This document shows, piece by piece, positions 1-64,000 of a stretch of DNA of 64,000 bases. This stretch comes from Haliotis rubra (taxonomy: Eukaryota). The position numbers are program-made. Numbering within the stretch: the first letter of the stretch is position 1; each line of letters starts with the position of its first letter. The DNA lies in assembly GCF_003918875.1 (NCBI RefSeq), contig NW_025767606.1:124001-188000 (forward strand), written 5' to 3'.

Positions 1-3000
1 AGTTCCGTATTTTTTATACTTACGTGTTTTGCCAACCATTTATGAAGTATATCAAGCTTAAATACTGTCAAAGCTCAGGGTTTTGTTGAAACGTGTCAAC
101 ATTTCACGTTGTCTTGTTTTCAATGTGTTACAGTGGTGAAACTTTCTGTACATTTTTCTAACTCACGGACTGAGAAAACAAAACATTTTGGGATGACAGG
201 TAATTATAATTTTCAGAATCAATCATGGCGTTCATGTGTCTAGATCTAAAATGAAGGGGGTACACTCACTTTCAACATCAATAATGTTGATGAGAAACCC
301 CACTGCATTCCAGAAAGAATCAGAGATAAACTCTATGTACATGCTGTTGCTGCTGCTGAGGAAACTGCTCGGGGTCGCCCTTCTGCCGCAAAATGTGAAC
401 ATGGATCCATTTGATTTGTCTGGCCCTGGTGACAAAAATATCACAAACATTTTGACGACAGACGTCAGACACGTTTTCATGTTATTGCAGTTATTGATGA
501 ATTAATTTAATTAATTTTAACAATAGATAAAGACAATATACTGAAACATAACAATCCTTTATTATACACAAGAAAATCTAAAGCGCCCAATTCTCATAGT
601 TACAAGGTGGGTAAACACTTGGGCCTGAATTAGGACCATGACAATCCTTCCCACACGTAAGGGTCTAGTGCTCACAATTGGGAACAATGAGATAACGGAC
701 AACGACTATTGCTCATATTATGAACCTCTTGTTTCTTGGTATATGGGGAACTTGAAAGACTGCACCTGTATGTACTAAACCTATAGACACTGAGAATGGT
801 ATGGTTTGGGGCAAAATTGCACAGTGACTCTAGGAAATTATCTAAATTATCCCTCCTTGGACATAAAGTTATTGTTAAATGATGAACTATTTGGAAAGTA
901 AGTGTAAACATAAAGTGACTACATATATCAAACTTCTGAAGAACAAACATTACTTTTCAAAACATCAACCTAATCCTGTTGGATAGGAGCAAGTCTTCAA
1001 AGATCGCAATATGTATAGTATCATAAAGAAATATTGTGCAAATGTTTAATCTTACTTATGTTAAATAATTTAGAACATATAAGTAAACCATAATCTACCC
1101 ATTGGTGGAGGTGGAGAAATATTCCTTATGACCGAAAGAAAAAAACACATTTTGTAATTGGAAGGATCTGACGCAAGAGAAGAATTCCATTGTCCATCTT
1201 TAGAAATTATACACATATTTTACTGCAATCGATTCGATATATGTAAAACTAATTCACATTTCAATAATCCACGATGAGGTAACATTGAGAATTTTTTGTG
1301 TAAAAGTCATTGTTACCCTTGATAATATGTGTACATATCATGAAGGCTCGACGAGGATGTTTTATATATAGCCTACATCTATATGTATAGGTATTATGTT
1401 GTTTCGTACAACTCATGTAGGTGGTAGGGGCCTGAATGAAAATAACAATGCTATTCAGTTGGCATCGCAAGGGCTCAGGTTGAAACCATGTGTACTCTTG
1501 ACCAAAAAATTCAAATGATATACGTACCATTATAGAAGGACAGACTGTCATATGTGCAATTTTTGGACGAATGCAAGGAAAAGTATGCAATGTGAATGCC
1601 AACTCGACGATCTGGTGTCAATGTGTGTATCTTCCATCCGCATGTTAAGTTACTAGAATAAACGGTATTAAATCAATATTAACAATGTTTCCATAGTACC
1701 AAATCATGAAGAGCATTATGATTACAAAAATGACAGTCTAGATAAATAATAATTATGACTCAACATCATTGATCGATGTGAGTCATGTTACATCCCCGAA
1801 TACAGGGGTGTATATTCTTTCTCAACTATGGCATCAATGGAAGCATATGAATATACGTACGTTCATATACGTATGAATGTACCTAATTTCATCCAGCCAG
1901 CCTNNNNNNNNNNNNNNNNNNNNNNNNNNNNNNNNNNNNNNNNNNNNNNNNNNNNNNNNNNNNNNNNNNNNNNNNNNNNNNNNNNNNNNNNNNNNNNNNN
2001 NNNNNNNNNNNNNNNNNNNNNNNNNNNNNNNNNNNNNNNNNNNNNNNNNNNNNNNNNNNNNNNNNNNNNNNNNNNNNNNNNNNNNNNNNNNNNNNNNNNN
2101 NNNNNNNNNNNNNNNNNNNNNNNNNNNNNNNNNNNNNNNNNNNNNGTCTTCTTAATATACGTGGTTTAGTAAATACTTGCATCAACTGTGATAACACCAT
2201 AGATACCCGATAAATAATCACGCATTAACATATATATTTGCTCAAGAGAAAATATTCAAATAAGTTCATCATAAATCAAATATTATTTCTTGAAAAAGTA
2301 TTCATAGGCAACATTTTCATGATAAAATGGTTATAAGCTAAAGCAATGTGGCAAGATCCTTTACATAGTCAATTAAAAACTGATGCCTCGGCCCTCGTAT
2401 CTTGAGCATACCATGGCTCTACATAAGAATTTTCTAAGCACATGGTCTTATGTAATTGATCGTTCTGAAGTAAGCGTCCATTCTCACATTGCACTAGTGA
2501 GAAAACAAACATTTGATGCTTACGCGCCATAAGGTTTTGGATATCCTGGCGATGTTATGTTTACTGTGTCCCCGGTAAGTGTGATTTCCTGGAAACATCT
2601 GTCTGGAAAGATAATCAATGACACACACACATACATGAATTTGAAATTGTGTTTCGAAAAGAAAAAGGATGATATTATAGGAACCGTACAATTGACTCTT
2701 TTATGGCTTTTAGCAGTTGTTTGTTTAGATAGCGTCTGTATGTAACTATAGTTAGTTACCGTACAGTTAAAATCAAGTTCCTAGTCAGATATGTTTTTAT
2801 TCTAAATAAGTAATGTTGACCAGGTGGATAAAAATATACTATAAGTCATAATTTCAAATATCTAACAAATTGAATGCATCCTTCTCAACAGTCGATATGT
2901 CTATTGTTCAATCACGGATTTAACCCTCTAGGCTGGTTAATCACTGTCAGACTGAGGTGTCGTTTTAAACTGCACGTATTGTCAGCATCACGCCCCCACC

Positions 3001-61800: not shown

Positions 61801-64000
61801 AGCCAGAGCAGTAAATTCACGTACACAAGCTGGTTAGTATGATCTGAAATTTCATTCTTGTTTACTCATGCAGTAAGTATCTCAAATATACAACTTATAT
61901 GGCGTATATGGCCATCCGTAGTTTTTATGGTTTACCATGTCCCTGGAACCAGTAAGAGAGCGAGCGGGCTAACAATAAAAGTAAAAACCATAAAATAATG
62001 ATTAATAATAATTGTTTTACTGATTTCATTTTATTTTCAGCTTAATTAATAATCTGGTAATAGTATTCAAATTCGGAACCAATTTTAAGTGTCAGAGTAT
62101 ATTAACACCACATGAGGACATGCATTTCCACAGCGGCGGGACAGAGTAGATATGGAAACTTTATGACGAATTCGAAATGCCGAATACAGAAAGAAAATAT
62201 ACAGATAACGTAAGATCAACACAAACTTGTAGTGGCACGTAGCTCTCGACCAGGGCCCTGTTTCACAAAGTGATCTTAGCCCTACGACTGCCGTAACTCA
62301 ATGTTAAGGTATAGGAGCTACGATAGTCGTAACGCTATGATCGCTTTGTGAAACGGGGCCCAGAGTTTGATATGTGAGTGATACAGCACAGTGTCGAGTA
62401 TCATTGATATCATGTGATAGCGGGTCACAGATAGTCATGTGACTCATTGACGCTAAGGTTTAGACTTCATAGGTTTCACAATAACAGGACATTCATTTAG
62501 TTTGATACATTACTGAGCGGTGTACCTACAGACAAAGTGGACTACGTATTAGGGTGACAGAAATATGAAGATATGGGGGGGTTTGTTCAGCAGTTGTATG
62601 TTTGATGTTGGTGTCAAGAACAGGTAGGTTTTGTTTTGTACTCAGCCCTGTATTACTGTTACAATGTGGGCGGTGAGGTAGGCCAGTGGCTAAAGCGTTC
62701 TCTCGTTAGGACCCGGGTTAATTCCCCAAGAGATATAATGTTAGACGTCTAGTTGTAGCGTCCGCTGCCTTGACATTGCTAATTGTCTACCTGAAAGCTG
62801 CCTAAAACCATACTCCCCATCTCAGTCATATGAAGACACACGACACCCATAGATGTAGTATTGTCACCATTTACCAAAACTACTTTCAATTTGTAATGTT
62901 AGACAAAATATATCTACTTTTCTGGTCACAGGTGATACGTATACGAAATAACTTGAACTGAATATGGAATGTGAGGTTATTATAAATAGAACGTAGTTGT
63001 TATTCCTACGTAAAATATCCCTCACAATTAAGACCTTCAAGTAAGTTTCACTACTTGGAAGGCTGTATAAAACTCTTTCCGTAGTTCCACACATATTCAC
63101 GTGTGAGAACCCTTGTCATGATTTTGCTTTCTGCGGTTTCTCGATGTAAGAAAATAAATCACTTCTGTGTTTATTATAGTTAAATTGTCAAGGTAACAAT
63201 TATTGTAGCTCACATGTTTTATGATAATGCTTGCAAGTTCATTATATGCACAGAAATCTCATTTCATATTACTGACGTTATAATTCCGAGCTTTCGGAGA
63301 TGTGATGATCAAGTATAGTTACGCTGAATGCTGAGATTTCGCTTCGTCATCCTAGAGTTGTTTCAATTCTATTCACAGATTCCTGTAATGTGGAAATCGT
63401 TTCATCGAGAACACCGACTAATGTCACTTCTCCTGGGTATCCTTTTATGGCCTACCCGAAGTAAGACACCAAGTGCAGTGAGACTATGACTTATGGAACC
63501 AGCAGATTTGACAACGAATGCCCCAAAACGTGTCATATTTATTTTATCAATGTCATCGGGGTAAACGATGATGGGCCAGCTGTTAACGATGGTGCAATTC
63601 GCTCCACAGTATTTCGTACCTTAGTCAATTCAGGATCTGCTAATCGCTCGCTCGTATCTGAGACTCGTATTGATTGTTACCTTTGATTTACCAACACAAT
63701 GTCCATATTAAGTTGATACGCAGTGTTTCGACTACACGCTTTTCAAAACAGCAAAATAGGTAGCTAGGTTCACTGGTTGTTCAGTAATACTTTCATGTAG
63801 CTCAGAGGAATTGGAATGATTGGCAGGACTTAAGAGACAGGCTTCAAACACGGCTATATATCCTGAAGTATATAATTATGCATGCATACATTGCACATAA
63901 CATAAACATGTTGGACACAGTTGTGCTTGTGTGAATATTGCTAATGTGTGTATGTTTTTGCAGTAATCTCCACTGCTGGTGGAGGATTGATGCCAGTGAT

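What the first reader, a model, noticed from the sequence alone, without database searches (positions are those of the whole stretch)
270..64000. Expanding cluster of CUB-only single-pass receptors with PPxY tails
Seen: four paralogs arranged as two tandem pairs in divergent orientation (B,A on -; C,D on +). In the two complete genes the ectodomain is only CUB domains (3 vs 6), followed by an AIVGGxxGxV small-residue TM start and a Pro/Thr/Gln-rich tail with PPAY (A) or PPAY+PPPY (C). No catalytic domain is present. Known: PPxY binds WW domains of NEDD4-family E3 ligases and YAP, and CUB domains bind protein ligands. Inference: a lineage-specific, fast-diverging receptor family coupling extracellular recognition (immune, gamete or endocytic) to ubiquitin-ligase recruitment.
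[Added by the scan's program, not by the reader: the finding's places include an assembly gap (unread letters, written N; its length is only estimated) at 1904 to 2145, 6147 to 6304, 37259 to 37391. Whether the letters on both sides are continuous or in frame is not known: test that first.]
Basis: partly seen in the sequence, partly recalled or inferred. Interest (0 to 1): 0.66.

Follow-up and report, generated by a model that had tools for sequence, protein, structure and literature searches.

The report
Cluster of CUB-only membrane receptor genes
Four old, diverged neighbouring animal genes encode membrane proteins whose outer part is made only of CUB domains; a short tail in two of them carries PPxY motifs, a plausible but untested link to ubiquitin ligases, and one of those tails is out of frame as assembled.

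Summary
The gene cluster is real. Four CUB-domain genes lie as B and A on the minus strand and C and D on the plus strand. A has 3 CUB domains and C has 6. B and D each show one before running off the window. Every CUB is built from three exons with intron phases 1|2|1|1 and canonical AG/GT sites. Pfam finds CUB in 19 of 20 b/c exons.

No LDLa, EGF or catalytic host domain was found. All three N gaps fall in introns or upstream DNA, and no coding frame crosses one.

A ends in a TM helix (AIVGGTIGGV...) and a tail with PPAY.

- In C, the AIVGG start of the TM and the PPAY/PPPY tail are in different reading frames. As assembled, C stops inside the TM.
- D's start codon is 1 nt out of frame.
- The copies are old and constrained, not expanding. 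Domains are 21-43% identical. C1 vs D1 gives pS 0.70 and dN/dS about 0.07.

Closest known are SOL-1 (CUB-only plus TM) and LRP10/LRAD3 (PPxY tails that engage NEDD4-type ligases). WW binding is inferred only. Orthologues and expression could not be checked.

The parts
270..2602 (-). Gene B, first (only visible) CUB module. Exons B1a 2602-2524, B1b 1652-1528, B1c 425-270. The gene continues beyond the window start.
   Evidence: Pfam CUB for B1b E=1.1e-4 and B1c E=1.3e-5. Gap 1904-2145 lies inside the a/b intron.
6589..6652 (-). Candidate signal-peptide exon of B (weak). ATG at 6652, phase-1 donor after 6589.
   Evidence: Rests only on a hydrophobic start and a phase-compatible GT. Unverified.
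9056..9354 (-). Gene A last exon: stalk, TM helix (AIVGGTIGGV...), 69-aa Pro/Thr/Ala/Gln-rich tail with PPAY at 9142-9131, stop at 9058-9056.
   Evidence: Best 19-aa Kyte-Doolittle window averages 2.71. No Pfam family.
11774..12832 (-). Gene A CUB3 (membrane-proximal). Exons A3a 12832-12754, A3b 12446-12325, A3c 11944-11774. It lacks the first Cys pair.
   Evidence: Pfam CUB for A3b 2.6e-6 and A3c 2.4e-7. Full E-D-D acidic triad.
14621..16611 (-). Gene A CUB2. Exons A2a 16611-16524, A2b 15580-15453, A2c 14779-14621.
   Evidence: Pfam CUB for A2b 2.7e-4, A2c 0.008 and A2a 0.14.
16909..27362 (-). Gene A CUB1. Exons A1a 27362-27281, A1b 25163-25027, A1c 17058-16909. The 8-kb b/c intron holds a DIRS-like retroelement.
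   Evidence: Pfam CUB for A1c 0.0024. A1b has no Pfam hit, but the window HMM gives E=7e-19.
35847..35904 (+). Gene C signal-peptide exon (19 codons plus 1 base, phase-1 donor).
   Evidence: The region is conserved with the DNA upstream of D (67% over 143 nt).
36833..38371 (+). Gene C CUB1. Exons C1a 36833-36914, C1b 37438-37562, C1c 38222-38371. Gap 37259-37391 lies in the a/b intron.
   Evidence: Pfam CUB 8.3e-5 and 1.7e-5.
38780..43657 (+). Gene C CUB2. Exons C2a 38780-38855, C2b 40135-40274, C2c 43520-43657.
   Evidence: Pfam CUB 1.1e-4 and 2e-4. Acidic triad incomplete.
43880..45780 (+). Gene C CUB3. Exons C3a 43880-43961, C3b 45194-45318, C3c 45625-45780.
   Evidence: Pfam CUB 0.012 and 1.6e-5.
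46258..47597 (+). Gene C CUB4. Exons C4a 46258-46339, C4b 46997-47121, C4c 47448-47597.
   Evidence: Pfam CUB 0.12 and 5.8e-5.
48670..49784 (+). Gene C CUB5. Exons C5a 48670-48754, C5b 48974-49089, C5c 49632-49784.
   Evidence: Pfam CUB 0.034 and 3.5e-7.
50070..53947 (+). Gene C CUB6. Exons C6a 50070-50148, C6b 51687-51811, C6c 53789-53947.
   Evidence: Pfam CUB 8.3e-4 and 4.7e-8.
54455..54537 (+). Gene C TM exon, first frame: stalk plus the AIVGGSVGSV start of the TM. It runs into TAG at 54535-54537.
   Evidence: The DNA aligns to A's TM exon.
54504..54746 (+). Gene C TM exon, second frame (shifted by -1/+2): the rest of the TM helix, an RKRNR stop-transfer, and a 66-aa tail with PPAY at 54651-54662 and PPPY at 54678-54689. 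Stop at 54744-54746.
   Evidence: This frame opens only after TAG 54501-54503. No Pfam family.
62565..62623 (+). Gene D homologue of C's signal exon. Its ATG (62565) is 1 nt out of frame with the conserved hydrophobic part and the phase-1 donor. The shift lies at a run of seven G.
63379..64000 (+). Gene D CUB1. Exons D1a 63379-63460 and D1b 63964-64000 (cut by the window end).
   Evidence: 18 of 26 (a) and 10 of 12 (b) residues are identical to C1.
5103..5188 (+). Lone copy of exon C2a with its splice donor, on the opposite strand to the flanking genes B and A. No b or c partner exon follows it.
   Evidence: 87% identical over 86 nt to 38781-38866. Window HMM E=9e-13.

Best explanation
SHOWN
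- The window holds four old paralogous genes for type I membrane glycoproteins.
- Each ectodomain consists only of tandem cubilin-like CUB domains: 3 in A, 6 in C, at least 1 each in B and D.
- After the CUBs come one TM helix that starts with tandem small-xxx-small (GxxxG-type) residues, then a short lysine-poor Pro/Thr/Gln-rich cytoplasmic tail with PPxY.
- Each CUB is a three-exon, phase 1-1 cassette, so the genes grew by cassette duplication.

INFERRED MECHANISM
- The CUB domains bind basic side chains of protein ligands through a Ca2+ site. 6 of 10 modules keep the Glu-Asp-Asp triad that does this in PCPE-1 and cubilin.
- The PPxY tail docks WW domains of NEDD4-family HECT ligases.
- The receptor, its ligand or a neighbouring membrane protein is then ubiquitinated and routed to endosomes, as proposed for LRP10 and shown for LRAD3.

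CAVEAT: as assembled, C cannot make this tail and D lacks an in-frame start. Either the assembly has two 1-nt errors or these two copies are damaged.
For: - Architecture: exon table with consistent phases and canonical sites. CUB by Pfam in 19 of 20 b/c exons. Profile matches to cubilin 3kq4 (E=1.4e-33 and 7.6e-20), neuropilins, PCPE-1, MASPs and Neto2.
- No other host domain. Among 263 ORFs of >=60 aa, only CUB and transposon domains appear. There are 0 LDLa motif hits in 2436 ORFs of >=18 aa.
- Extracellular character: 9 of 10 modules have four Cys, and NxS/T sequons are frequent in CUB exons.
- TM: Kyte-Doolittle 2.71 in A, followed by basic residues in both A and C.
- Ca2+ site: the Glu, Tyr and Asp columns align to PCPE-1 Glu60/Tyr67 and Glu183/Tyr190 (alignment with a chain offset of 4; PMC6372009 passages). 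The full acidic triad is present in 6 of 10 modules.
- PPxY: the only alignable piece of the two tails is F-x-x-P-P-A-Y, 5 of 7 identical. It lies at a similar distance from the TM, 41 and 35 residues. Shuffled tails contain PPxY in 4.5% (A) and 8.8% (C) of trials, and two or more in C in 0.23%.
- Lysines: the tails hold 2 of 69 (A) and 1 of 66 (C), counted from the sequences.
- Precedent: PPxY tails of LRP10 and LRAD3 (PMC11315911 and PMC5331069, passages).
- Purifying selection: C1 vs D1 dN/dS about 0.07 over 38 codons.
Against: - No binding, expression or orthologue data exist here. The WW/NEDD4 step is inference from a 4-residue motif.
- The pairwise tail match is weak (E=0.12). A single PPxY is not rare in a Pro-rich tail (4.5-8.8% of shuffles).
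- PPxY also turns up in non-coding reading frames: of the 5 matches outside the two tails, four fall in near-identical, repeat-like ORFs.
- In C the tail is out of frame with the TM start. Between the two conserved DNA anchors C is 10 nt shorter than A, counted. So only A shows an intact TM plus PPxY tail.
- D's ATG is out of frame.
- A's signal exon was not found.
- 4 of 10 CUBs lack the full acidic triad.
- Tails of B and D lie outside the window.
Confidence: 0.4

Rival explanations
1. The proteins are auxiliary or scaffolding subunits of ligand-gated ion channels, like C. elegans SOL-1 (four CUB domains plus TM) or LEV-10 and Neto. The CUB ectodomain does the work, and the PPxY tail is secondary, for trafficking only or dispensable.
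For: The architecture matches SOL-1: type I, CUB-only ectodomain (PMC9083331 passages). Neto2 is among the PDB matches (E=4.5e-10 and 1.9e-6). In SOL-1 and LEV-10 the extracellular part alone rescues function at least partly (same passages), so a tail need not matter.
Against: Neto2 scores well below cubilin, neuropilin and PCPE-1, so no specific kinship is shown. No orthology test was possible. There is no channel gene in the window. A four-gene cluster with 3 versus 6 CUBs is not what is described for SOL-1.
Confidence: 0.15
2. PPxY engages WW proteins other than NEDD4-type ligases, such as YAP/Yorkie-type co-activators or scaffold proteins with WW domains. The receptors would then signal or anchor rather than being sorted.
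For: The same motif evidence as for the best explanation. That PPxY is the generic class I WW ligand is my recollection; no call here tested it.
Against: Nothing in the sequence discriminates between WW partners. The only precedents seen here for CUB/LDLa-type receptors point to Itch/Nedd4 (PMC5331069 and PMC11315911, passages).
Confidence: 0.1
3. PPxY is incidental to a proline-rich, disordered tail. The genes encode surface binding or adhesion proteins (immune, gamete or matrix recognition) that act through the ectodomain alone.
For: One PPxY arises in 4.5-8.8% of composition-matched shuffles. The tail alignment has E=0.12. The tails match no Pfam family.
Against: The motif is the only conserved element of two otherwise unalignable tails, and it sits at a similar distance from the membrane. 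C has two copies, which only 0.23% of shuffles reach.
Confidence: 0.2
4. Part of the cluster is decaying. C (frameshifted TM exon) and D (start out of frame) would be pseudogenes, or C would make a tail-less product ending in a short hydrophobic C-terminus. Only A, and possibly B, would be working receptors.
For: C's first frame ends at TAG 54535-54537, and the tail is in another frame. D's ATG is 1 nt off. A lone exon copy at 5103-5188 and a marginal b-like fragment near 61549-61590 (E=0.007) suggest gene debris in the cluster.
Against: All 18 CUB exons and the signal exon of C are open with intact splice sites. The shifted tail frame stays open for 80 codons and keeps PPxY. C1 vs D1 shows strong constraint. 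D's shift lies in a run of seven G, a classic site for an assembly error. One lesion per gene fits error or very recent damage better than long decay.
Confidence: 0.25

Closest known systems
SOL-1 (C. elegans), auxiliary subunit of GLR-1 glutamate receptors
   Same: A type I membrane protein whose ectodomain is only CUB domains (four), then one TM (PMC9083331, passages).
   Different: No PPxY tail is described in the passages I read. It is a single gene, not a cluster. Orthology could not be tested. Function there lies in the ectodomain.
LRP10 / LRP3 / LRP12 and LRAD3 (small LDL-receptor-related mosaic receptors)
   Same: Type I receptors. LRP3, LRP10 and LRP12 carry two CUB domains. The LRP10 tail is proline-rich with PPxY. 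LRAD3's two PPxY motifs activate Itch and Nedd4 (PMC11315911 and PMC5331069, passages). This is the best model for how the tail would work.
   Different: All of them have LDLa repeats, and none were found here. LRAD3 has no CUB. LRP10 also has DXXLL sorting motifs, and no [DE]xxxL[LI] motif is present in the A or C tails.
Cubilin
   Same: The best solved-structure match for both the b and c exon profiles (3kq4). It has tandem Ca2+-type CUB domains.
   Different: From recollection, cubilin has no TM and has EGF repeats and 27 CUBs. Here there is a TM and no EGF.
LEV-10 and Neto/SOL-2
   Same: Type I proteins with CUB ectodomains (PMC9083331, passages). Neto2 is among the PDB matches.
   Different: They carry an LDLa domain, which is absent here.
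CDCP1
   Same: Single-pass protein with CUB-like domains only (recalled).
   Different: The CDCP1-specific Pfam model gave only one sub-threshold match (A3b, E=0.041, 14.1 bits against a cut-off of 27).

Membership tests
CUB domain (Pfam PF00431) | Match to the CUB profile across its length | tested here: met
   Tested exon by exon. 19 of 20 b/c exons hit at E<=0.12, 16 of 20 at E<0.01, and 13 of 20 above the 21.4-bit cut-off. 1 of 7 tested a exons hit. The a, b and c exons tile profile positions 1-22, 24-67 and 67-110. A1b missed Pfam but fits the window HMM.
CUB domain (Pfam PF00431) | Four conserved cysteines (two disulfides) | tested here: met
   9 of 10 complete modules have 1+2+1 Cys in the a/b/c exons. 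A3 has only the second pair.
Ca2+-binding subset of CUB domains | Three conserved acidic residues (Glu, Asp, Asp) and a Tyr on the ligand-binding loops | tested here: inconclusive
   The acidic triad is complete in 6 of 10 modules (C1, C3, C4, C5, C6, A3). The Tyr is present in 2 of those 6. Columns were mapped to PCPE-1 Glu60/Tyr67 and Glu183/Tyr190 through the alignment and PMC6372009 passages. The third Asp column was mapped by position count only.
LRP3/LRP10/LRP12 class | LDLa (class A) repeats in the ectodomain | tested here: not met
   0 LDLa motif hits in 2436 six-frame ORFs of >=18 aa. No Ldl_recept_a among 263 ORFs of >=60 aa. Short exons hidden in the N gaps cannot be excluded.
LRP3/LRP10/LRP12 class | Proline-rich cytoplasmic tail with PPxY | tested here: met
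   A has PPAY in frame with its TM. C has PPAY and PPPY, but only in a shifted frame.
SOL-1-like CUB-only type I proteins | Signal peptide, CUB-only ectodomain, single TM | tested here: met
   C has a signal exon, six CUBs and a TM (frameshifted). A has three CUBs and a TM, but its signal exon was not found.
SOL-1-like CUB-only type I proteins | Orthology to SOL-1 or association with glutamate receptors | not testable with these tools
Class I WW-domain ligands (PPxY) | PPxY on the cytoplasmic side of the membrane | tested here: met
   In A the motif lies 41 residues after the TM, downstream of basic stop-transfer residues. Topology is inferred from the positive-inside rule.
Class I WW-domain ligands (PPxY) | Physical binding to a WW domain | not testable with these tools
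   Complex prediction offers reference proteins only from bacteria, archaea and phages, so no animal WW protein was available. No job was sent.
CDCP1 | Match to CDCP1-specific CUB models | tested here: not met
   Only A3b matched, at E=0.041 and 14.1 bits against a cut-off of 27.

The most novel reading that the evidence does not exclude
These genes would form a so far uncharacterised invertebrate family of CUB-only ligase adaptors, a CUB counterpart of LRAD3 and NDFIP. A Ca2+-dependent CUB array would capture extracellular or cis-membrane partners. A lysine-poor PPxY tail, which is itself a poor ubiquitin acceptor, would recruit and activate NEDD4-type ligases against the captured partner. 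TM GxxxG motifs would pair the paralogues into homo- or heterodimers, and the 3- and 6-CUB forms would give different reach and specificity.
Probability: 0.15. Interest if true: 0.5.

Novelty: new member of a known kind. Interest (0 to 1): 0.25.

Why it matters
If the tail does recruit NEDD4-type ligases, this would be a simple, LDLa-free version of the LRP10/LRAD3 idea. That is, a surface binding module wired directly to ubiquitin-dependent sorting. The cluster would offer natural 3-CUB and 6-CUB variants for comparison.

As it stands, this is an ordinary and well-formed family of CUB membrane proteins. The practical value of this check is threefold. The gene models are sound. The claimed 'complete' gene C has a frame break exactly where the functional argument lies. 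And the 'expanding, fast-diverging' label is not borne out.

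Tried and rejected
- ESM Atlas with A's TM/tail exon: not answered. 
- Structure prediction on A's TM/tail exon: not accepted at that time.
- Complex prediction: not sent, because no animal WW-domain reference is on offer.
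- Genome contigs and search_dna_similar: not used. They hold bacteria, archaea, phages, plasmids and E. coli, which cannot bear on an animal gene family.
Orthologues, synteny and lineage-specificity therefore stayed unchecked.
- Joined spliced models were never searched or folded. All searches were exon by exon, so no whole-domain or whole-protein score exists.
- Candidate signal exon for A at 34770-34692: rejected, because the split codon with A1a reads TGA. Other A candidates (33857-33806 and 32832-32790, the latter inside a repeat) are too weak to accept.
- A 38-nt mini-intron (54500-54537) or the alternative acceptor 54538 would put C's tail in phase with C6c. Both remove the TM helix, so I did not adopt them.
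- EGF-like and sushi-like regex hits (47336-47671 minus and 54537-54809 minus) lie antisense to CUB and tail exons. I treated them as chance.
- Rfam at gathering thresholds and ARAGORN found nothing.
- Literature, for a CUB-only family with PPxY tails. One search found 4 papers holding all three terms. I read passages of two, both about LRP10 and LRAD3. One search found 1 paper (listing only). One search listed 5 of 7 (listing only). None describes such a family, but only open-access full text was searched.

Full report
WHAT IS THERE

The window is AT-rich animal DNA (GC 0.34-0.43), full of dispersed repeats. Nothing suggests a human contig, and I did not treat it as one. I did not try to identify the source organism.

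Stop-to-stop ORFs, motif scans and HMMs built from the window's own pieces find three recurring exon types:
- type a: C...SPGYP..Y
- type b: C.W...E...C.YD...YDG
- type c: LG.FCG...F.SD.S..GF

After rebuilding the HMMs from all members, the assigned exons score E<=1e-11 and background ORFs score E>=0.14. Three pieces sit outside this split. The truncated D1b scores E=0.0036. A lone a-type exon lies at 4978-5178 (+). A marginal b-like piece lies in ORF 61438-61656 (+), at about 61549-61590, with E=0.007.

GENE MODELS

Choosing the AG and GT sites that flank the conserved blocks gives one rule everywhere. Each CUB is three exons a/b/c with intron phases 1|2|1|1. All 34 acceptors are AG and all 31 donors are GT. 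The 10 complete modules measure 354-375 nt, each a multiple of three. I selected the sites, so canonical dinucleotides are partly by construction. That a fitting site exists at the homologous place in every module is not.

- Gene A (minus strand) has three modules between 27362 and 11774 and a last exon at 9354-9056.
- Gene B (minus) shows one module at 2602-270 and runs off the window.
- Gene C (plus) has a signal exon at 35847-35904, six modules between 36833 and 53947, and a TM exon from 54455.
- Gene D (plus) shows a signal-exon homologue at 62565-62623 and the start of its first module at 63379-64000.
- A and C are head to head.

GAPS

The three N runs are 1904-2145, 6147-6304 and 37259-37391.
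- The first lies in B's a/b intron, 379 and 252 nt from the nearest exon ends.
- The third lies in C1's a/b intron, 345 and 47 nt from the exon ends.
- The second lies upstream of B's first CUB exon.

No coding frame crosses a gap. Continuity across the first and third gaps is supported by three things. The a exon ends in phase 2 and the b exon starts in phase 2. The two exons supply complementary parts of one CUB profile. And C's gapped intron (523 nt with the estimated gap) compares with 503 nt for the ungapped equivalent in D. A small exon hidden in one cannot be excluded.

DOMAIN IDENTITY

All searches were made exon by exon. The joined spliced models were never searched or folded, so whole-domain scores do not exist.
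- Pfam lists CUB (PF00431) for 19 of 20 b/c exons at E<=0.12, 16 of 20 at E<0.01, and 13 of 20 above the 21.4-bit cut-off. A1b missed.
- Of 7 tested a exons, 1 hit (E=0.14).
- The three exon types tile profile positions 1-22, 24-67 and 67-110.
- Profiles of the b and c exons match solved CUB proteins. Cubilin 3kq4 is best (7.6e-20 and 1.4e-33). Next come neuropilins, PCPE-1, MASPs, C1r, TSG-6 and Neto2.
- A scan of all 263 ORFs of >=60 aa without N found only CUB (10 ORFs) and transposon families: RVT_1, Phage_integrase, RNase_H and zinc fingers.
- An LDLa motif search over 2436 ORFs of >=18 aa found nothing.

So 'CUB-only, no catalytic domain' holds for what the window shows.

ECTODOMAIN DETAILS
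- Nine of ten modules have the four cysteines. A3 keeps only the second pair.
- N-glycosylation sequons are common in CUB exons.
- The Glu and Tyr-Asp columns of the b exons align to PCPE-1 Glu60/Tyr67 and Glu183/Tyr190 (with a chain offset of 4).
- The PCPE-1 structure paper describes these residues as Ca2+ ligands that salt-bridge lysines of the bound partner. [quoted passage not shown]
- The full Glu-Asp-Asp triad is present in 6 of 10 modules: C1, C3, C4, C5, C6 and A3.

MEMBRANE ANCHOR AND TAIL

A's last exon reads through a stalk, a TM helix beginning AIVGGTIGGV (best 19-residue hydropathy 2.71), basic residues, and a 69-residue tail. The tail is T 14%, A 14%, P 13%, G 9% and Q 9%, with PPAY at 9142-9131 and a stop at 9058-9056.

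C's TM exon starts the same way (AIVGGSVGSV). In that frame it runs into TAG at 54535-54537. The rest of the helix, the RKRNR stop-transfer and the tail with PPAY (54651-54662) and PPPY (54678-54689) are in another frame, which opens only after TAG 54501-54503.

The DNA of both halves aligns to A's single frame. Between the two conserved anchors, C is 10 nt shorter than A (counted by hand). So a frame break sits inside the TM-coding part of C as assembled.

Similarly, D's ATG aligns with C's but is 1 nt out of frame with the conserved hydrophobic part and the donor. The shift falls at a run of seven G. Each may be an assembly error or a real lesion, and I cannot tell which. All 18 CUB exons of C are intact, which argues against long decay.

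IS PPxY MORE THAN CHANCE?
- The two tails are otherwise unalignable. The only local match is F-x-x-P-P-A-Y, 5 of 7 identical, E=0.12.
- The motif lies 41 (A) and 35 (C) residues after the TM.
- Composition-matched shuffles contain PPxY in 4.5% (A) and 8.8% (C) of 100,000 trials, and two or more in C in 0.23%.
- The tails are paralogous, so the two are not independent.
- PPxY also occurs in non-coding frames: four of the five matches outside the tails fall in near-identical, repeat-like ORFs.
- I rate the motif as suggestive. It is the one conserved feature of diverged tails, but it is not proven.
- The tails have no YxxPhi, NPxY or acidic di-leucine motif, apart from one YxxV overlapping C's PPAY.
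- They are lysine-poor: 2 of 69 and 1 of 66.

AGE AND CONSTRAINT
- Self-blastn finds no paralogous exon pair except an 86-nt copy of exon C2a.
- Identity among the ten modules is 21-43%, mean 31%. The best cross-gene pairs are B1-C1 (43%), A1-C4 (42%) and A3-C6 (41%) (counts summed over exons kept separate).
- The closest pair is C1 and D1. Over 38 codons it gives pS 0.70 (saturated), pN 0.13 and dN/dS about 0.07.
- These are old duplicates under purifying selection. That does not fit 'expanding' or 'fast-diverging'. Lineage-specificity could not be tested.

HOW IT MOST LIKELY WORKS

Shown: the domain architecture and the cassette structure.

Inferred:
- Ca2+-dependent binding of basic residues of protein ligands by the CUB array, by analogy with PCPE-1 and cubilin.
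- Possible TM pairing through the tandem small-xxx-small motif.
- Recruitment of NEDD4-type HECT ligases by the PPxY tail, leading to ubiquitin-dependent sorting.

The last step has a close precedent. LRP10, a CUB plus LDLa type I receptor, has a proline-rich tail with PPxY. LRAD3's two PPxY motifs activate Itch and Nedd4 (PMC11315911 and PMC5331069, passages; the primary papers by Noyes 2016 and Riling 2015 were seen only as citations). I give the whole chain a probability of 0.4.

The main rivals are:
- a SOL-1/LEV-10-like channel auxiliary role (PMC9083331, passages)
- other WW partners
- an incidental motif
- partial decay of the cluster

COMPARISON AND NOVELTY

The family works like, but is not a member of, the LRP3/10/12 class, because LDLa is absent. 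It shares its architecture with SOL-1, but orthology is untestable here. It is not CDCP1-like by Pfam.

Searches for a described CUB-only family with PPxY tails found none. One search found 4 papers, and I read passages of two. One search found 1 paper (listing only). One search listed 5 of 7 (listing only). Only open full text was covered.

I file it as a new member of a known kind, mosaic CUB type I receptors, with a modestly interesting tail.

LEFT OPEN
- expression and tissue
- A's and B's first exons
- the tails of B and D
- whether C's and D's frame breaks are real
- orthologues and synteny
- any binding data
- structure predictions, which could not be run
- supplements of the papers, which were not consulted

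Noticed in passing
window 17700-22400 (+), inside gene A's intron between A1b and A1c: A DIRS-like retroelement lies antisense to gene A. It has a gag-like ORF with a CCCH finger (18134-19018), reverse transcriptase (19269-19976, RVT_1 E=2.4e-14) and a tyrosine recombinase (21247-21825, Phage_integrase E=8.2e-9). A perfect 338-bp tandem duplication sits at 17765-18102 / 18107-18444.
   Followed up: partly
window 5103-5188 (+): A solitary copy of exon C2a, including its splice donor, is 87% identical to 38781-38866. That is far closer than any other paralogous exon pair. It lies on the opposite strand to the flanking genes B and A, is flanked by dispersed repeats, and has no b or c exon after it. 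It may be a relic of a partial duplication or a captured fragment.
   Followed up: partly
window 61549-61590 (+), in ORF 61438-61656: A marginal match (E=0.007) to the second half of the b-type CUB exon lies about 1 kb upstream of D's signal exon. It may be a decayed exon.
   Followed up: no
about a dozen places, e.g. 14969-15214, 24394-24636, 37951-38196, 43238-43486, 45889-46145, 51868-52110: A repeat of roughly 240 bp is scattered through the introns of A and C at about 75-90% identity. A second repeat of about 320-360 bp lies at 27484-27800, 36446-36804 and 42624-42984 (about 91-92%), with a split partial copy at 11093-11598. Neither gives an Rfam or tRNA hit.
   Followed up: partly
window 56900-58130 (both strands): Fragments of a non-LTR-type retroelement lie between genes C and D: a zinc knuckle (57292-57645), an RNase H piece (57708-58127) and a reverse-transcriptase piece on the other strand (57478-57765).
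   Followed up: partly
window 26535-26936: An imperfect palindrome or tandem-inverted repeat of about 400 bp lies in gene A's intron between A1a and A1b.
   Followed up: no
window 62575-62581 and 54504-54508: The two frame breaks, in D's start and C's TM exon, are each single-base in effect. One lies in a run of seven G. If these are assembly errors, other coding indels may exist in this assembly.
   Followed up: partly
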